Part shown: positions 6,759 to 15,101 of the stretch, in pieces
How the letters are laid out: every line of letters begins with the position of its first letter
Position numbering within the stretch: the first letter of the stretch is position 1
Assembly (NCBI GenBank): GCA_040217195.1
Contig: JAVJNR010000006.1
Span: 160,001 to 224,000, forward strand
Origin: Leptospiraceae bacterium
GTDB lineage: Bacteria; Spirochaetota; Leptospiria; Leptospirales; Leptonemataceae
Direction of reading: 5' to 3'
DNA length: 64,000 nucleotides
Position numbers and translations under genes: made by a program
Notes under the pieces: model-generated
What the model saw: only the letters and a program-made list of their open reading frames with translations
What the model was told of the DNA's origin: nothing
Databases searched by the model: none

Positions 6759-7376
6759 TTACTTGGAGTAGAATTCGATGATTTTCTGAATGTTAATTCT
6801 GGTAACTGGAACATCGTCAGGGTTTGTAATTCCCATGAATTTTCCCGAGATACCGTCTTCCTGCAACTCCAGATACTGAGTGGGATTGTTTCCAGCAGGT
6901 CTGGCTTCCAGAGCGAATTTCACTCGATCCAGTTCCCTGGAAGCAGGGTGCACTCCGACCACATCGCCCACCTTTACCTGAAAGCTGGGGATATCAACAC
7001 TCTGATCGTTCACAGTTACATGACCGTGGTTAATGAGCTGTCGAGCATCAAAGATGCTACGAGCCAGTCCAAGACGGTAAACCAGAGTCATCAGTCGGGA
7101 CTCCAGCATGAACAGGAAGTTATCCGCTTTGTTACCCTGAAGCTTGGATGAACGCTCAAAGGTTTTGAAGAATTGCTTTTCCATCATACCGTAGGTTAAG
7201 CGAAGCTTCTGCTTTTCCAGGAGCTGCTCACCGTAAGGTGATCTTTTTCTTCTTCGTGAACCGGGTCGGTGTCCGGGAGCGTAAGGTCGCTTGATAGAAG
7301 GACACTTTGGATGATTGTAAAGGCAATAACCTACCGTGCGGCAGATCTTATGCTTTGGTTTTCTAATTGTAGCCAT
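6759..7376 (-). CDS. rpsD: 30S ribosomal protein S4
   Basis: YGEQLLEKQKLR, LESRL, ARQLINHGHVTVN, VDIPSFQV, IIEFYSK. Confidence 0.96.
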   Translation of the reverse strand: MATIRKPKHKICRTVGYCLYNHPKCPSIKRPYAPGHRPGSRRRKRSPYGEQLLEKQKLRLTYGMMEKQFFKTFERSSKLQGNKADNFLFMLESRLMTLVYRLGLARSIFDARQLINHGHVTVNDQSVDIPSFQVKVGDVVGVHPASRELDRVKFALEARPAGNNPTQYLELQEDGISGKFMGITNPDDVPVTRINIQKIIEFYSK

Positions 7377-7623: not shown

Positions 7624-7749
7624 GCAATGTGACATAATCCGGGCCCTTAATCCGGCCGCGCAATGTGACATAATCCCGCTCCTTAACTCAGCCAGGCAAT
7701 GCGACATAATCCCGCTCCTTAACTCAGCCGGGCAATGTGACATAATCCC
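7624..7749. repeat. 36-bp tandem repeat (VNTR), about 3.5 copies
   Basis: Units start at 7624, 7660, 7696 and 7732; consensus GCAATGTGACATAATCCCGCTCCTTAACTCAGCCRG. Confidence 0.95.
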
Positions 7750-7946: not shown

Positions 7947-9287
7947 ATGTCTTCTACTTCTTCCAATGATCCGCTACCTGGGGTTGAGCCGCTGCAGCCA
8001 AGTTTACAGGAGGCCACTCGGTCCGGCCTTCTTCTGATCAATATTTCCGGATTGGATCGTCCGGGCATTACTAGAGCTATTACGGAGATTCTGGCTCATT
8101 ATAACGTTCAAATCCTGGACATGGGGCAGTCGGTAATTCATGAAACCCTATCTCTTGGTATTCTAATCCGCATTCCTCCTGAGCAGCAGGGAGCACCGGT
8201 GCTCAAGGATTTGCTCTTTAGAGCCCATGACTTTGGCATACCAATAAATTTTACTCCGGTGGATCAGCAGTCCTATGATCGATGGGTAGGTCATGGAGGT
8301 TTGCCCAGATACATTGTGACATTGCTTGGTCGAGATCTGCGTGCCAGCCATGTACATCAAGTAACTCGAATCATTGCCGAGCAAGGATTGAACATAAACT
8401 CTATCCGCCGTCTATCCAGACGAATACCCGGACCTGAACTGGCAGACCTGGATCGCTCCCTGGAGCCGGAAAAGCCGGTGGAGGGAAGCAAGAGACGACC
8501 TCCAGTATGTCTGGAGTTTCAGGTAAGTGGAAACGATGTAAACTTTGGCCGACTCAAAGAGACTCTGCTTATGGCTACTTCGGATCTGGGAGTGGACATT
8601 GCATTCCAGAAGGATGATCTATACCGACGAAATCGCCGTTTGATTGCATTCGATATGGACTCCACACTAATTCAGGCAGAGGTCATCGATGAGCTGGCAA
8701 AGGAAGCCGGTGTCGGTGAAGAGGTGGCCCGGATTACGGAAAGCGCCATGCGAGGCGAAATCGATTTCAACGAAAGCTTCAAGCGAAGGGTAGGACTTCT
8801 TAAAGGAATGTCCACCGAGTTTCTTGAGGGCATTTATGAAAGACTTCCGGTCACAGAGGGCGCTCCTCATTTGATCAAAGTACTAAAATCTATGGGATAT
8901 ACTACAGTGATTCTGTCTGGAGGATTTACTTTCTTCGCAGAGCGATTGCGTCAAAAACTTGGAATGGATTATATCTTTGCCAATGAGCTGGTAATCAAGG
9001 ATGGTATTGTTACAGGAGAGGTTCAGGAGCCCATCGTCAATGGGGCACGAAAAGCTGAACTACTGGCCGGAATTGCTGAAAAGAAGGGAGTGCGAAAGGA
9101 GCAGGTAATCGCAGTTGGCGATGGAGCCAACGATCTACCCATGCTGGGAATGGCCGGCCTTGGAATCGCCTTTCGTGCAAAGCCCGTAGTGCGCAAAGAG
9201 GCAGATCAATCTATCAGTAATCTGGGACTGGATGCCATCCTGTACTTACTTGGTTACAGACATGAAGATTTCCCCAATGAACTTTAG
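7947..9287 (+). CDS. serB: phosphoserine phosphatase with two ACT domains
   Basis: GLDRPGIT ACT domain, FDMDST, SGGF, GDGANDLPM HAD motifs. Confidence 0.95.
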   Translation: MSSTSSNDPLPGVEPLQPSLQEATRSGLLLINISGLDRPGITRAITEILAHYNVQILDMGQSVIHETLSLGILIRIPPEQQGAPVLKDLLFRAHDFGIPINFTPVDQQSYDRWVGHGGLPRYIVTLLGRDLRASHVHQVTRIIAEQGLNINSIRRLSRRIPGPELADLDRSLEPEKPVEGSKRRPPVCLEFQVSGNDVNFGRLKETLLMATSDLGVDIAFQKDDLYRRNRRLIAFDMDSTLIQAEVIDELAKEAGVGEEVARITESAMRGEIDFNESFKRRVGLLKGMSTEFLEGIYERLPVTEGAPHLIKVLKSMGYTTVILSGGFTFFAERLRQKLGMDYIFANELVIKDGIVTGEVQEPIVNGARKAELLAGIAEKKGVRKEQVIAVGDGANDLPMLGMAGLGIAFRAKPVVRKEADQSISNLGLDAILYLLGYRHEDFPNEL

Positions 9288-12131: not shown

Positions 12132-15101
12132 GTGCAGTGCTGGTCTGCTACCATGCTGGCTTACGGAGAGCAGGAAAGTCTGCCTGTGGAAATTTTGAGG
12201 GATGAAACTACAGGATTTCCCCTGCTGTCTGAGGCGGATGGTATACTTCAGCTAATTCTGGCCTATCTTGAATTACCCTATTCCGTAACCGAACATGGAT
12301 GCGGTAAGAAGGCCAGTTTGATTATTGATTATCTTCTGAAGTTGGGAATTCCGGCCCATGGTCTGGCCCGCGGTATGATCCTGGAAGCGGACATGTCGCC
12401 GGAAGCGATGGTGGAGACTGACTTTCGCAAGCGTCCTCATGCTCTCGTGGCCTCCAATCCGCTCAATTCTCTTTGTGACCTGGATGATCAACGCCTGGTC
12501 TCGCTGCTTATGGAGACTTGCCGTAGAGTGGATGCCGCAGAGGGAATCATTCAAACCGGTCCTTACATTTTACGCCATGATTCGGAAGTTCAGTTTGTGC
12601 AGGCAAGAAGCCACATTTATCCAATTCTATGGTTCTGGGATCCGGATTCCCGGAAAGCCCGGCGGCTGGTGATCGATCCCAGTCTGGACCGAAGTCAATT
12701 GCTACATCCCGGACGGATGCGTGAATTGCTAAATGCCCGCGAGGCTTTGATGTTTCAGGCCCCTCTGCTTGGCTATTTCCGGCTTGAGACTTTTGCACTT
12801 ACAGAAAAGCAGCAATCCTTCCTGAATTCCCGGTTCAGTCAAGGAGCCACCGATCTAAGCGAATCAGAAGTCCACCAGATTGTTGAGAGCCTTTCGCAGG
12901 ATGAGCATGCAAGTCTCATTCGGGAGATGACCGGAGCACAGGAGAGTTCCCTGGGAGATCCGGCTACCTAGACCTATGCGAATAACCTTCAGGGCTGGGA
13001 TCGCTCCCGGGATAGTGAGCAGGACCGAAACACTGGACGTGCCGATGCTATACGAAACCTGCGAAGAAAACTAATTAAATCAAGAGAGGAGCGTCAGGGG
13101 GATGCCCCCGATTTACGAGCCCAGATTCGTGAGACGGTGGACCATGCTGAAGTCCATAGAGTCTGTGCCGAAGATGCTGCCTGGTCGGCCAGGGCCCTGG
13201 CTCCGCTGGCTGATGTGACAATGACGGCTGTTTACTTCAGTTCCCTGCTGAAACTCGATGCTGCTCTGGAGCGACAGTCAAATCTTCCCGAATACATAAT
13301 CGACCCACAGCATTTGCATCAGATGCGTGGTCTGGGTGTGCGACTGAGGCGAAGAGTGGACTGGCTGGCAGACGCCTCAATGAATTCCGACGGGGAGATC
13401 GATGCCCGCGCATTAAGCGAGCCCTATTTTGACGCTGCCTTTGAGACTATTCGTCAGATGAACTCAGCCGGCCTTTTTGTGGCCATCGATTCAGCGGGCA
13501 ACATCCATGGACTGTACTTGCTCGATGAGGAAGCCTATCGGATTCGCAAATCCGGTGAACTGGGAGACCTGCTACGGGAATCCATCCACCATATTTCGCA
13601 CATTGATTCCGTTAAGAATGCTGGACGATTTGATGGTAGGCTTGGTGTTACAGGAGGTATCGAGGTAGCACATATACTCAGGGATCTGGAGAAATTCTGT
13701 CAGCGTAAAGTTCTAGCCCCGGACAGTGAATCTTCTGTTCGAACTCATGTAAGCGCCCTTCTGGGAGAAGAGATGACATTTACAGGCGAAGGAGTGTCTA
13801 TGCCCGGAAGCTCGGCGCTGACCGGCCAGGCTTCTGTAGAATCGATCTATAAGATGAAAAACCATGAGGGTCAGCTCTTTAAGGATCGTTTTCTGGTGTT
13901 CCTTCGATGGCTGGCAGCCAGACAGGAATCCGGTCAGGTTGTGCTTCTGAACCAATTTTCTGTGGGCGGAAGCGATGAGGAGTTATTAGAATCCTGCTTT
14001 AAGCCCGGAGGGTTTTTCACCAGGCATACTTTCGAGCGTCACATCGAACAGGGCCCTATACTGGACAGGCATTCCGTGCCTATGACTCTAGTTTCCGGGA
14101 TCATGGGGATTCATCAGGAGGATTTTCATTTCCGGGGAGAGAATGCTGAGGCCGCCGCTCTGGACTTTAATAGAAGGTTACGGGAACTGAATCTCCAGAG
14201 TGAATTTACGGAAGCGCGTATTACCGTAGGAATTACCAGAGGAGAGTCGGACTATATATGTCATGAAGATACCCTGGCCATGCGATGGACTCTGGACGGG
14301 GAGCTCAATCATGCCGGTGCCACCGATGTTTATGACAGGAAGGATCCGGGGGTCGCATTAGCCAGATTGGCTCAGGAATTCTACCGACTTGTAGATCGGA
14401 GAAAAGCGAAACAGGATTCCTTGAAACCCCTGGCAGGTAATGTTCGTTTCAATCCAGGAATTAATCGAAATGTTATTCCCGGTTCCGCAAGCATAACTCT
14501 AGCCGTGCGGGGAAGTCTTTCTCGGGATGATGCAGATAGCCTGGCGCAGGAGCTTCAGGGTTTTACAATAGGAACACTGGCCAAGCGAGTCTCTGCTGGA
14601 GGGGAAGGTATAAGGCTTTCGCGTATGGAATCCATGAGTTATATCAATGTGCACGATGGGGCCATGGTCTCGATTGATCTACGAACTGCCACGGAAGAAC
14701 TGACCAACCGAATTCGCAAAGAAATCGACTCCCTGATTTCTAAGCTTCAGAAGGAATTTTCTGTCCGGGCGCAATCGTTGGTCCAGCAGCAGGTTAAGCC
14801 TTTTCGCCTAAAAAAATCGGGACAGGTATTGCTTATGGAAAGAAGTTATGGAGGCAGCCATAATCCTAACGAAGCCGAATTGCAAACAGATCTTACAAGG
14901 GGCACAATTCTTCAATTTCAGGTGGTCTACGAATTACTTCAGAAAAAGAATCTTCCCTCTGGCTTCAATCTTTATAGTTTCACAGAGGAACGGATTCCAG
15001 AAGTATACAGGAAGAATCTCTCGGAGTTCATTTCCGGGGCATTGCACGATACATGTAACATTGCCGCATCTGCAGCGGAGCCCACCCGAACCGGGAATTA
15101 A
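12132..15101 (+). pseudogene. protein-glutaminase-like domain fused to M20 amidohydrolase, interrupted by one in-frame TAG at 12969-12971 (nonsense allele or read-through)
   Basis: ORFs 12132-12971 and 13137-15101 share a frame and 12972-13136 has no stop. N-part: EHGC, SHIYP, VIDPSL. C-part: SHIDSV, GRFDG, GEE, HIEQGP, NHAG, SHNPNE, SGALHD. Confidence 0.75.

What the first reader, a model, noticed from the sequence alone, without database searches (positions are those of the whole stretch)
12132..15101. Protein-glutaminase-like Cys-His-Asp domain fused to an M20 amidohydrolase
Seen: the N-part reads LPYSVTEHGCGKKASLIIDYLLKLG...SHIYPILW...RRLVIDPSL. From memory this parallels Chryseobacterium protein-glutaminase (YPVDGCYARAH...YHVAILV...RIIDPSL), with Cys, His and Asp all kept. 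The same frame continues into an allantoate/N-carbamoyl-amino-acid amidohydrolase (M20) domain. Inference: a two-step deamidase/amidohydrolase of about 990 aa. I do not know this architecture from characterised enzymes, and it is my best candidate for an undescribed system here.
Basis: partly seen in the sequence, partly recalled or inferred. Interest (0 to 1): 0.75.

Follow-up and report, generated by a model that had tools for sequence, protein, structure and literature searches.

The report
Candidate two-step osmolyte-recycling fusion enzyme
This gene belongs to a rare family of marine bacterial proteins that join a protein-glutaminase-like domain to an N-carbamoylase; the family almost always occurs with an operon thought to make a salt-protection compound, so it probably breaks that compound down, although this particular copy is cut by a premature stop.

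Summary
The fusion is real. Of 53 non-self homologues, 50 are single 958-1033 aa chains, and carriers span five phyla. The N-domain models confidently (pLDDT 90). Its best PDB match is protein-glutaminase (Z 11.0, rmsd 2.8 Å), and Cys/His/Asp are nearly invariant. The C-part is a hydantoinase/carbamoylase-type M20 enzyme with all metal ligands, two lid domains in one chain and a relocated SGALHD motif. This copy carries a TAG at invariant Trp280, whereas conspecific sequences read TGG, so it is probably a broken allele. Of 30 fusion-bearing genomes, 29 hold a 'pseudo-ATCase' gene, against 0.7-7% in two background samples. That gene sits in a symporter/amidotransferase operon whose usual catabolic pair is an M20 plus an isochorismatase-type amidase. 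The fusion occupies or flanks that operon in five Bacteroidota, and 12 of 28 carriers lack the pair. Best reading (about 0.55): a cytoplasmic amidase-then-carbamoylase that recycles N-carbamoyl-glutamine-1-amide, an osmolyte for which my searches found no assigned genes. No activity was measured, and which amide is cut remains open.

The parts
12153..15101 (+). Whole fusion reading frame, from the conserved ATG (MLAYG) to TAA; interrupted by one TAG
   Evidence: homologue N-termini; intact 989-aa conspecific protein P0294
12153..13031 (+). Protein-glutaminase-fold (papain/transglutaminase-like) domain, about residues 8-300, with an insertion between Cys and His
   Evidence: AlphaFold2 model of the 70%-identical homologue, pLDDT 90.3, pTM 0.87; Foldseek top 6 rows all protein-glutaminase; VIA Z 11.0, rmsd 2.8, 143 aligned to 2zk9
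12300..12302 (+). Cys57, putative nucleophile, at the start of a helix
   Evidence: Cys in 72 of 74 rows, 2 gaps; helix H48-61 of the model
12612..12614 (+). His161, putative triad His, at the start of a strand
   Evidence: His in 74 of 74 rows; strand E151-161 of the model
12675..12677 (+). Asp182, putative triad Asp (IDP motif)
   Evidence: Asp in 73 of 74 rows, Asn in 1; His-Asp spacing 21 against 20 in protein-glutaminase His197/Asp217
12969..12971 (+). Premature TAG in place of the invariant Trp280 (GDPxTWTYANN motif); cuts off the end of the N-domain and separates the M20 half
   Evidence: A12970G in contigs of runs X1 and X2; no genuine internal stop in 192 orthologues of the same assembly
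13044..13322 (+). Helical linker region, about residues 305-397
   Evidence: helices H298-312, H318-331, H334-373 in the full-length model of P0002, pLDDT 93.2, pTM 0.91; numbering mapped
13137..15101 (+). 654-aa downstream ORF left by the stop (the M20 half)
   Evidence: present in the protein collection as P0055
13323..14948 (+). M20 hydantoinase/carbamoylase-type amidohydrolase with motif residues His490, Asp501, Glu546/Glu547, His637 (HIEQG), His910
   Evidence: NCBIfam NF006771 E 6e-35, below its cut-off; VIA Z 26.5 to 8c46, whole chain aligned to model 391-930; conservation
14106..14273 (+). Lid A, first half (first insertion relative to ordinary carbamoylases)
   Evidence: 54-residue insertion in hhalign to the operon M20; weak (3%) local match to the lid; strand-helix-strand in the model
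14274..14642 (+). Lid B, nested inside lid A; carries His727 (NHAGAT) and Asn780 (NRNVIPG)
   Evidence: PF07687 M20_dimer above cut-off; hhalign probability 98% to the lid
14643..14804 (+). Lid A, second half; carries the carboxylate-binding Arg851 (SIDLR)
   Evidence: hhalign probability 89% to the second half of the ordinary lid; Arg in 69 of 74 rows, 5 gaps
14949..15101 (+). C-terminal extension carrying SGALHD (15033-15050), the motif that precedes the metal His in ordinary carbamoylases but follows it here
   Evidence: segment alignments (short, E 0.007-0.01); solved carbamoylases align only up to model residue ~930; His972 in 68 of 74 rows

Best explanation
[quoted passage not shown] Shown: fold, conserved catalytic residues, fusion, co-occurrence with the operon. 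Inferred: (1) the operon's pseudo-ATCase carbamoylates glutamine and its asparagine-synthase-like enzyme amidates the alpha-carboxyl, as AsnO does in NAGGN synthesis; (2) the Cys-His-Asp domain hydrolyses an amide of the solute, more likely the 1-amide, doing the job of the operon's isochorismatase-type amidase; (3) the freed carboxylate is held by Arg851 and the dimetal M20 site removes the carbamoyl group, giving glutamine, CO2 and ammonia; (4) the second lid supplies in cis the His and Asn that ordinary dimeric carbamoylases take from the partner subunit. The allele in this window is most likely inactive because of the TAG, with the genome's own M20 + amidase pair still intact. The confidence covers CGA recycling by either amide (about 0.33 for the 1-amide, 0.22 for the side-chain amide).
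For: Fold and residues. Co-occurrence: pseudo-ATCase at E<=1e-60 in 26 of 27 fusion-bearing GTDB genomes; the miss is a MAG whose 3-kb fusion contig has the amidotransferase next door. Adding G000, G003 and G480 gives 29 of 30. Backgrounds: 20 of 299 Gammaproteobacteria-class genomes and 2 of 300 in a Bacteroidota family; the only fusion among those 300 lies in one of the 2. Among 61 Leptospirales, 20 have the gene and all 11 fusion carriers are among them. Physical linkage: the fusion lies inside or head-to-head with the operon in five Bacteroidota loci and beside the amidotransferase in a sixth, and beside the operon-type amidase in Alteromonas. Replacement: 18 of 19 fusion-less gammaproteobacterial operons carry M20 + amidase, while 11 of 27 fusion carriers plus G480 lack both. 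Product: the pseudo-ATCase keeps STRTR in 199 of 199 proteins but has N[ST/A]IAW-type residues where ATCase has R-x-Q (also PMC4016543). Three proteins named Ectothiorhodospira mobilis belong to the family, and genome G393, 100% identical to one of them, has the run M20-amidase-pseudo-ATCase-amidotransferase. CGA is the solute of E. marismortui, 'also known as' E. mobilis (PMC1224877).
Against: No activity or metabolite was measured. In 14 of 27 carriers the fusion coexists with both M20 and amidase, so it is not a simple replacement. The 'pair missing' label falls on one side of a single branch of the fusion tree (support 89), so those genomes are not independent events, and no residue signature separates the groups. 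Fusion and pseudo-ATCase distances do not correlate between taxonomic groups (rho 0.02). In 21 of 27 carriers, and in this window, the gene is not next to the operon. Most operon carriers, including G393, have no fusion. A sister pseudo-ATCase subgroup is catabolic (ureidoglycine carbamoyltransferase, PMC4016543). PMC7824335 lists E. mobilis and E. marismortui as separate names. Triad geometry could not be measured on the model.
Confidence: 0.55

Rival explanations
1. Variant counted within the best explanation's 0.55: the N-domain cuts the side-chain (gamma) amide of CGA, as protein-glutaminase does on blocked glutamine, so the fusion complements the operon's amidase and M20 and lets the cell strip all the nitrogen, ending in glutamate.
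For: The closest fold is protein-glutaminase, assayed on Cbz-Gln-Gly, and CGA is a glutamine blocked at both ends. The fusion coexists with the amidase in 14 of 27 genomes and is its direct neighbour in Alteromonas. N-carbamyl-L-glutamate amidohydrolase ErtE is the second or third best NCBIfam model, below cut-off. Related carbamoylases accept beta- and gamma-carboxylates.
Against: In 12 of 28 carriers no operon-type amidase was found to remove the 1-amide. The fusion's best NCBIfam model is the same as that of the operon M20.
Confidence: 0.22
2. The fusion works in the same operon's pathway, but the metabolite is not CGA: another N-carbamoyl amino-acid amide, or an imported ureide that a catabolic pseudo-ATCase breaks down.
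For: The linkage evidence does not identify the compound. The only assayed pseudo-ATCase is a catabolic ureidoglycine carbamoyltransferase. A sodium symporter flanks the pseudo-ATCase in 26 of 26 loci from fusion carriers.
Against: An asparagine-synthase-family (amide-forming) gene is next to the pseudo-ATCase in 18 of 19 fusion-less loci. The operon core is present without the symporter in G393. The family is in 49 of 55 genomes of the family sample that includes G393.
Confidence: 0.25
3. The N-domain is a true protein or peptide deamidase, like Chryseobacterium protein-glutaminase or NTAQ1, joined to an amidohydrolase with an unrelated substrate.
For: The best structural matches are protein-glutaminases and NTAQ1.
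Against: No signal or pro-peptide in the N-termini inspected, whereas protein-glutaminases have both. No PF18626 hit. Every intact member found is fused to a small-molecule carbamoylase, and carriers depend on one metabolic operon.
Confidence: 0.05
4. The enzyme serves an unrelated ureide pathway, such as ergothioneine, hydantoin or purine breakdown, and the co-occurrence with the operon reflects shared habitat.
For: Hits to ErtE and allantoate amidohydrolase models. Genes with DinB/FGE-sulfatase and histidine-methyltransferase domains lie downstream in L031.
Against: No such pathway genes recur among the neighbours. Direct insertion in the operon in five Bacteroidota loci. No fusion in 298 operon-negative genomes of that family or in 41 operon-negative Leptospirales.
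Confidence: 0.04
5. Separate question about this allele: it is still functional, through read-through of the TAG or as a split gene.
For: A Bacteroidota MAG has a TAA one codon earlier in the same motif. All other catalytic residues are intact here. The truncated 272-aa protein also occurs in a Logan contig, which may come from the source sample.
Against: Both stops have intact conspecific alleles (P0294, P0297) and each needs only one base change. The stop removes the invariant W-x-Y-x-N-N end of the domain. The other 26 loci show no internal stop in the part held.
Confidence: 0.1

Closest known systems
Protein-glutaminase of Chryseobacterium proteolyticum (PDB 2zk9, 3a54; Pfam PF18626; triad Cys156-His197-Asp217)
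   Same: Same fold (Z 11.0, rmsd 2.8, 143 residues, 14% identity); Cys-His-Asp in the same order with similar His-Asp spacing. A remote stand-alone relative (P0088) aligns across the three residues and passes the PF18626 cut-off.
   Different: No signal or pro-peptide; about 60 extra residues between Cys and His; no direct PF18626 hit; fused to an M20 enzyme; tied to a small-molecule operon.
Hydantoinase/carbamoylase family M20 amidohydrolases (L-N-carbamoylase 3n5f and 8apz, N-carbamoyl-beta-alanine amidohydrolase 8c46, allantoate amidohydrolase, ErtE; TIGR01879)
   Same: Z 22-26 over whole chains; SHID, D, EE, HIEQG, SHxP metal motifs and the DLR Arg are conserved.
   Different: Scores are far below all curated cut-offs; two nested lid domains in one chain; SGAxHD moved behind the last metal His; N-terminal cysteine-hydrolase domain.
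Monomeric M20 peptidases PepV / Sapep
   Same: An enlarged lid with an Arg that binds the substrate carboxylate in a monomeric enzyme (PMC2937973 passages). That PepV's lid mimics two dimerisation domains is recalled, not from a call.
   Different: Those are dipeptidases. Here sequence and structure group with the carbamoylases, so the double lid probably arose separately (inference).
Marine pseudo-ATCase subgroup (Barba et al. 2013, PMC4016543)
   Same: The partner operon: pseudo-ATCase with STRT/HPTQ/HPLA and AIA/SIA, a Na+ symporter, an 'asparaginase'-annotated gene and usually a carbamoylase.
   Different: The passages read give the marine subgroup no function and mention no fused hydrolase.
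NAGGN osmolyte system (asnO-ngg plus a third gene)
   Same: An asparagine-synthase-family enzyme amidates a glutamine carboxyl to finish a neutral osmolyte (PMC8070244 passages).
   Different: It has an acetyl/peptide cap in place of a carbamoyl cap, and the partner amidotransferases score below the NAGGN model cut-off (TIGR03104).

Membership tests
Protein-glutaminase (PF18626) | Papain-like fold closest to protein-glutaminase | tested here: met
   (model of the 70%-identical homologue)
Protein-glutaminase (PF18626) | Conserved Cys, His, Asp in triad order and matching secondary-structure positions | tested here: met
   72/74, 74/74 and 73/74 rows; helix start, strand start, after strand
Protein-glutaminase (PF18626) | Triad geometry in three dimensions | not testable with these tools
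   model coordinates and residue-level superpositions are not returned
Protein-glutaminase (PF18626) | Profile match above the Pfam cut-off | tested here: not met
   no Pfam family at E<=1 for residues 1-279; only the remote relative P0088 passes
Protein-glutaminase (PF18626) | Secreted pre-pro-enzyme (signal and pro-peptide) | tested here: not met
   by inspection of 13 sampled N-termini and the model, which aligns to the mature enzyme from residue 18; no signal predictor was run
Protein-glutaminase (PF18626) | Deamidation of peptide-bound Gln | not testable with these tools
   needs an assay
Hydantoinase/carbamoylase family M20 amidase (TIGR01879) | Fold | tested here: met
   Foldseek E 8.5e-21 to 3n5f; VIA Z 26.5
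Hydantoinase/carbamoylase family M20 amidase (TIGR01879) | Dimetal ligands, catalytic Glu, HIEQG Gln and carboxylate Arg | tested here: met
   each in 69-74 of 74 rows, with the rest mostly gaps or frame-disrupted rows; assigned by motif alignment to 3n5f and the operon M20
Hydantoinase/carbamoylase family M20 amidase (TIGR01879) | Score above the curated cut-off | tested here: not met
   96.9 and 112.8 bits against 204; the insertions and the motif move lower the score
Hydantoinase/carbamoylase family M20 amidase (TIGR01879) | One dimerisation domain per chain, canonical motif order | tested here: not met
   two nested lids and SGALHD after GGSHNP; the short segment alignments are weak on their own
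Pseudo-ATCase operon pathway (candidate CGA system) | Genome carries the pseudo-ATCase, symporter and amidotransferase genes | tested here: met
   own genome C7:112.5-120.7 kb; 29 of 30 carriers have the pseudo-ATCase
Pseudo-ATCase operon pathway (candidate CGA system) | Gene lies in the operon | tested here: inconclusive
   in or beside it in 6 of 27 loci; not in this window or in the other 21
Pseudo-ATCase operon pathway (candidate CGA system) | Hydrolyses CGA; operon makes CGA | not testable with these tools
   needs metabolite analysis and enzyme assay

The most novel reading that the evidence does not exclude
This family is a dedicated catabolic enzyme for N-carbamoyl-glutamine-1-amide, an osmolyte described in 1991 for which my searches found no assigned genes. 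It would show a protein-glutaminase fold working in the cytoplasm on a small metabolite, pointing to such blocked-glutamine solutes as a natural substrate of the fold, and it is joined to a single-chain, pseudo-dimeric, motif-permuted N-carbamoylase. In marine Nitrosomonas it would turn the stored solute back into ammonia.
Probability: 0.45. Interest if true: 0.8.

Novelty: new variant of a known kind. Interest (0 to 1): 0.66.

Why it matters
It gives a concrete, cultured-strain handle (Flavilitoribacter nigricans, Nitrosomonas marina and N. aestuarii, Bowmanella dokdonensis, Alteromonas sp. H39) on a widespread marine operon that was noted in 2013 without a function, and on an osmolyte whose pathway my searches did not find in print. 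One purified protein with Cys and Glu mutants can test both. It also extends the protein-glutaminase fold, an industrial food enzyme known as a secreted pre-pro-protein, to an apparently cytoplasmic metabolic role. And it offers a natural single-chain N-carbamoylase, a class used in amino-acid manufacture.

Tried and rejected
Sequence-only searches do not see the N-domain: no Pfam or NCBIfam hit, and no meaningful PDB hit by phmmer or profile. ESM Atlas gave only sub-threshold transglutaminase-like leads. The local neighbourhood (Dps-like ferritin gene upstream, CBS and Na+/H+ exchanger genes downstream, both on the opposite strand) is shared only within the genus and was rejected as functional context. 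A general error load in the assembly was rejected: the 8 of 192 orthologues flagged for stops all had them in the first 50 columns, in upstream extensions of my query ORFs, and there were no frameshifts. The 'TGA' reported for G004 is only the terminal stop. No RNA holder was listed. Runs X4 and X5 do not cover the stop codon. Promoter and terminator scans were at chance level. The mirror-tree test gave no between-group signal, and no residue signature separated carriers with and without the M20/amidase pair (the careful tree did not finish, so the quick tree was used). The pseudo-ATCase was not found on plasmids. The metagenome scan added 6 loci with no operon genes in the flanks held. P0085 is a repeat protein and was treated as a false hit. 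Paper searches that found no description of the fusion or of CGA genes. The library covers only open-licence PMC and bioRxiv, and I saw no supplements, including those of PMC4016543, which may list more gene contexts.
Full report
Observation. Window 12132-15101 (+) is one frame of 989 codons. Homologues begin at the ATG at 12153. The first 279 residues hit no Pfam or NCBIfam family. The rest hits M20_dimer above its cut-off and hydantoinase/carbamoylase models well below theirs (best NF006771, E 6e-35).

The fusion is real. A search with residues 1-400 among proteins of 543-1731 aa returned 54 hits: the window's own downstream ORF, 50 proteins of 958-1033 aa and 3 shorter ones. A profile search without length limits over 1.84 billion representatives returned only 44 hits. 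Of these, 25 are 920-1013 aa, and most of the shorter ones checked map onto parts of the fusion. Two are remote stand-alone proteins, one is a degenerate 805-aa form, one continues into unrelated sequence and one is a repeat-protein false hit. A pattern scan of 185,579 species genomes gave 27 loci in Spirochaetota, Pseudomonadota, Bacteroidota, Verrucomicrobiota and Planctomycetota. This is a floor, since G003 and G480 were found only by other searches. All 20 runs holding the window stretch or part of it are listed as marine except one coded organism; only four were laid.

The stop is an allele, not a family trait. The codon is Trp in 74 of 74 aligned homologues. Contigs from two studies that cover the site read G at 12970, giving TGG, and an intact 989-aa conspecific protein differs at 10 positions. 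The assembly shows no genuine internal stop or frameshift in 192 orthologues tested. The truncated 272-aa protein also appears in a Logan contig, which may derive from the source sample. A real strain-level nonsense mutation is therefore more likely than an assembly error. One Bacteroidota MAG has a TAA one codon earlier, also with an intact conspecific allele. I cannot explain the closeness of the two stops; chance is not excluded.

N-domain. AlphaFold2 on the 70%-identical homologue gives pLDDT 90.3 and pTM 0.87. Foldseek's top six PDB rows are all protein-glutaminases (E 6e-4 to 6e-3). An exhaustive comparison with 48,161 chains ranks 2zk9 first (Z 11.0, rmsd 2.8 Å, 143 residues), ahead of NTAQ1 at Z 6.2. 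Cys, His and Asp are kept in 72, 74 and 73 of 74 rows. They sit at a helix start, a strand start and just after the next strand, with His-Asp spacing 21 against 20 for His197/Asp217 of protein-glutaminase (PMC4214742, passages). The remote hit P0088 aligns across all three residues (hhalign 95.6%) and passes the PF18626 cut-off. Protein-glutaminases have a signal and a pro-peptide (PMC13465451 and PMC13298967, passages); the N-termini I inspected have neither. I could not measure triad distances.

C-part. The full-length model has pLDDT 93.2 and pTM 0.91. It matches N-carbamoylases (Foldseek E 8.5e-21; Z 26.5 with the whole chain aligned to residues 391-930). His490, Asp501, Glu546, Glu547, His637, His910, the HIEQG Gln and Arg851 are conserved. 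In a solved relative, Gln, Glu and His orient the carbamoyl group, an Arg binds the carboxylate, and the site uses both monomers (bioRxiv 2023.05.04.538398, abstract and passages). Against the ordinary operon M20 (hhalign 100%, E 6e-41) the fusion has two insertions that amount to a second lid. An inner lid carries NHAGAT and NVIPG, and an outer one carries DLR. That His and Asn come from the partner subunit in dimeric carbamoylases, and that PepV uses a doubled lid, is recalled; PMC2937973 (passages) confirms only a monomeric lid with a carboxylate-binding Arg. GGSHNP precedes SGALHD, the reverse of the canonical order. Those segment alignments are short and weak alone, but they agree with the structural alignment ending at residue 930.

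Context. Neighbours in the window are shared only within the genus. In five Bacteroidota loci the gene lies inside or head-to-head with a cluster of a small membrane-anchored protein, a sodium:solute symporter, an ATCase-like enzyme and an asparagine-synthase-family enzyme, and a sixth has the last gene next door. The window's genome holds the same cluster on contig C7, with a stand-alone M20 and an isochorismatase-type hydrolase between the ATCase-like and amidotransferase genes. The ATCase-like gene (E<=1e-60, 45-100% identity, against about 34% for PyrB) was found in 26 of the 27 fusion genomes, flanked by the symporter in all 26. With G000, G003 and G480 the count is 29 of 30. Controls: 20 of 61 Leptospirales have it, and all 11 fusion carriers are among them (nine of these genomes are also in the set of 27). 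In a Gammaproteobacteria-class sample 20 of 299 have it and none has the fusion (one genome unscored; the 20 include G383, flagged unpublished). In a Bacteroidota family 2 of 300 have it, and the only fusion lies in one of the two. Kin are not independent, so I give no p-value.

Replacement pattern. Of 19 fusion-less gammaproteobacterial operons fetched, 18 contain both the M20 and the amidase; the miss is at a contig end. Of 27 fusion genomes, 11 gave neither orthologue, 14 gave both and 2 gave M20 only. G480 (fusion) gave neither, while G676 (operon, no fusion) has the M20 but no amidase. Several of these are incomplete MAGs. Against simple displacement: coexistence is commoner than replacement, the label maps to one side of one branch, and the two genes' distances do not correlate between groups.

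What the operon makes. This ATCase-like group was described as marine 'pseudo-ATCases' beside a Na+ symporter, an 'asparaginase' and a carbamoylase, with no function given in the passages read; a sister subgroup was shown to be a catabolic ureidoglycine carbamoyltransferase (PMC4016543, passages). In 199 family proteins STRTR is always kept, and the ATCase R-x-Q is replaced mostly by NSIAW or NAIAW. The family includes three proteins named Ectothiorhodospira mobilis, and others from E. magna, Ectothiorhodosinus mongolicus and Thiorhodospira sibirica. Genome G393, identical to one E. mobilis protein, has M20-amidase-pseudo-ATCase-amidotransferase in a row and no fusion. [quoted passage not shown] PMC7824335 (passages and section 3.1.10) lists the two names separately and names this solute as a candidate for E. 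mongolicus and T. sibirica, which lack betaine and ectoine synthesis. AsnO amidates the terminal glutamine in NAGGN synthesis (PMC8070244, passages), a direct analogy. I reached the CGA idea; earlier notes of this scan proposed the same for the operon. They are unchecked AI notes and add no independent support. None of the look-ups returned this fusion.

Mechanism. Most likely the intact protein takes CGA, removes an amide with the Cys-His-Asp domain, and passes the carbamoyl acid to the dimetal site, releasing glutamine (or glutamate), CO2 and ammonia when the cell no longer needs the solute. I favour the 1-amide (0.33), because the fusion stands in for amidase plus M20 and the M20 Arg needs a carboxylate. 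The side-chain amide (0.22) fits the homology to protein-glutaminase and the coexistence with the amidase. A different product of the same operon (0.25), protein deamidation (0.05) and an unrelated ureide pathway (0.04) are the other readings. In this genome the intact M20 + amidase pair may have made the fusion dispensable, which would fit the stop (inference).

Novelty and verdict. Both domains belong to known folds, but the protein fails membership of PF18626 and TIGR01879 on score and architecture. Six searches of the open-licence library found no paper on the fusion or on CGA genes; subscription journals and supplements were not seen. I rate it a new variant of a known kind, interest 0.66: an undescribed enzyme architecture with a specific, testable link to a long-unassigned osmolyte pathway, but unproven and broken in this copy.

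Noticed in passing
own genome G000:C7:112565-120663 (L048:3566-11664): Intact-looking operon: P-II, small membrane-anchored protein, sodium:solute symporter, pseudo-ATCase, M20 carbamoylase, isochorismatase-type hydrolase, asparagine-synthase-family enzyme. A P-II gene also heads the operon in L103, suggesting nitrogen control.
   Followed up: yes
L027:7745-7747 and window 12969-12971: Two nonsense codons in unrelated lineages fall on adjacent codons of the same GDPxxW motif, and a 262-aa protein (P0074) also diverges and ends there; both stop alleles have intact conspecific alleles.
   Followed up: partly
P0081 (805 aa): Degenerate family member with the same two-part layout that has Ser at the Cys position and appears to lack the His and the M20 metal motifs; possible pseudo-enzyme.
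   Followed up: no
P0088 (370 aa) and P0089 (494 aa): Stand-alone remote relatives of the N-domain with Cys, His and Asp motifs; P0088 bridges to PF18626. Their gene contexts were not seen.
   Followed up: partly
window 15091 onward and P0294 C-terminus: Contigs of runs X4 and X5 leave the window sequence at 15091 with the same different sequence, and P0294 ends differently, so strains vary right at the gene's 3' end.
   Followed up: no
window 7624-7749: 3.5 copies of a 36-bp unit (87% matches) in the gap between the minus-strand ORF 6759-7376 (looks like ribosomal protein S4, recalled) and the ORF at 7947.
   Followed up: no
L031:8890-11252 and L032:14853-15140: Genes with DinB/FGE-sulfatase and histidine-methyltransferase domains (ergothioneine-synthesis type, recalled) lie downstream of the fusion in L031, and a fragment similar to the methyltransferase lies at the edge of L032.
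   Followed up: no
P0226, P0288, P0230: Thiorhodospira sibirica, Ectothiorhodosinus mongolicus and Ectothiorhodospira magna, which PMC7824335 says lack betaine and ectoine synthesis, all carry the pseudo-ATCase.
   Followed up: partly
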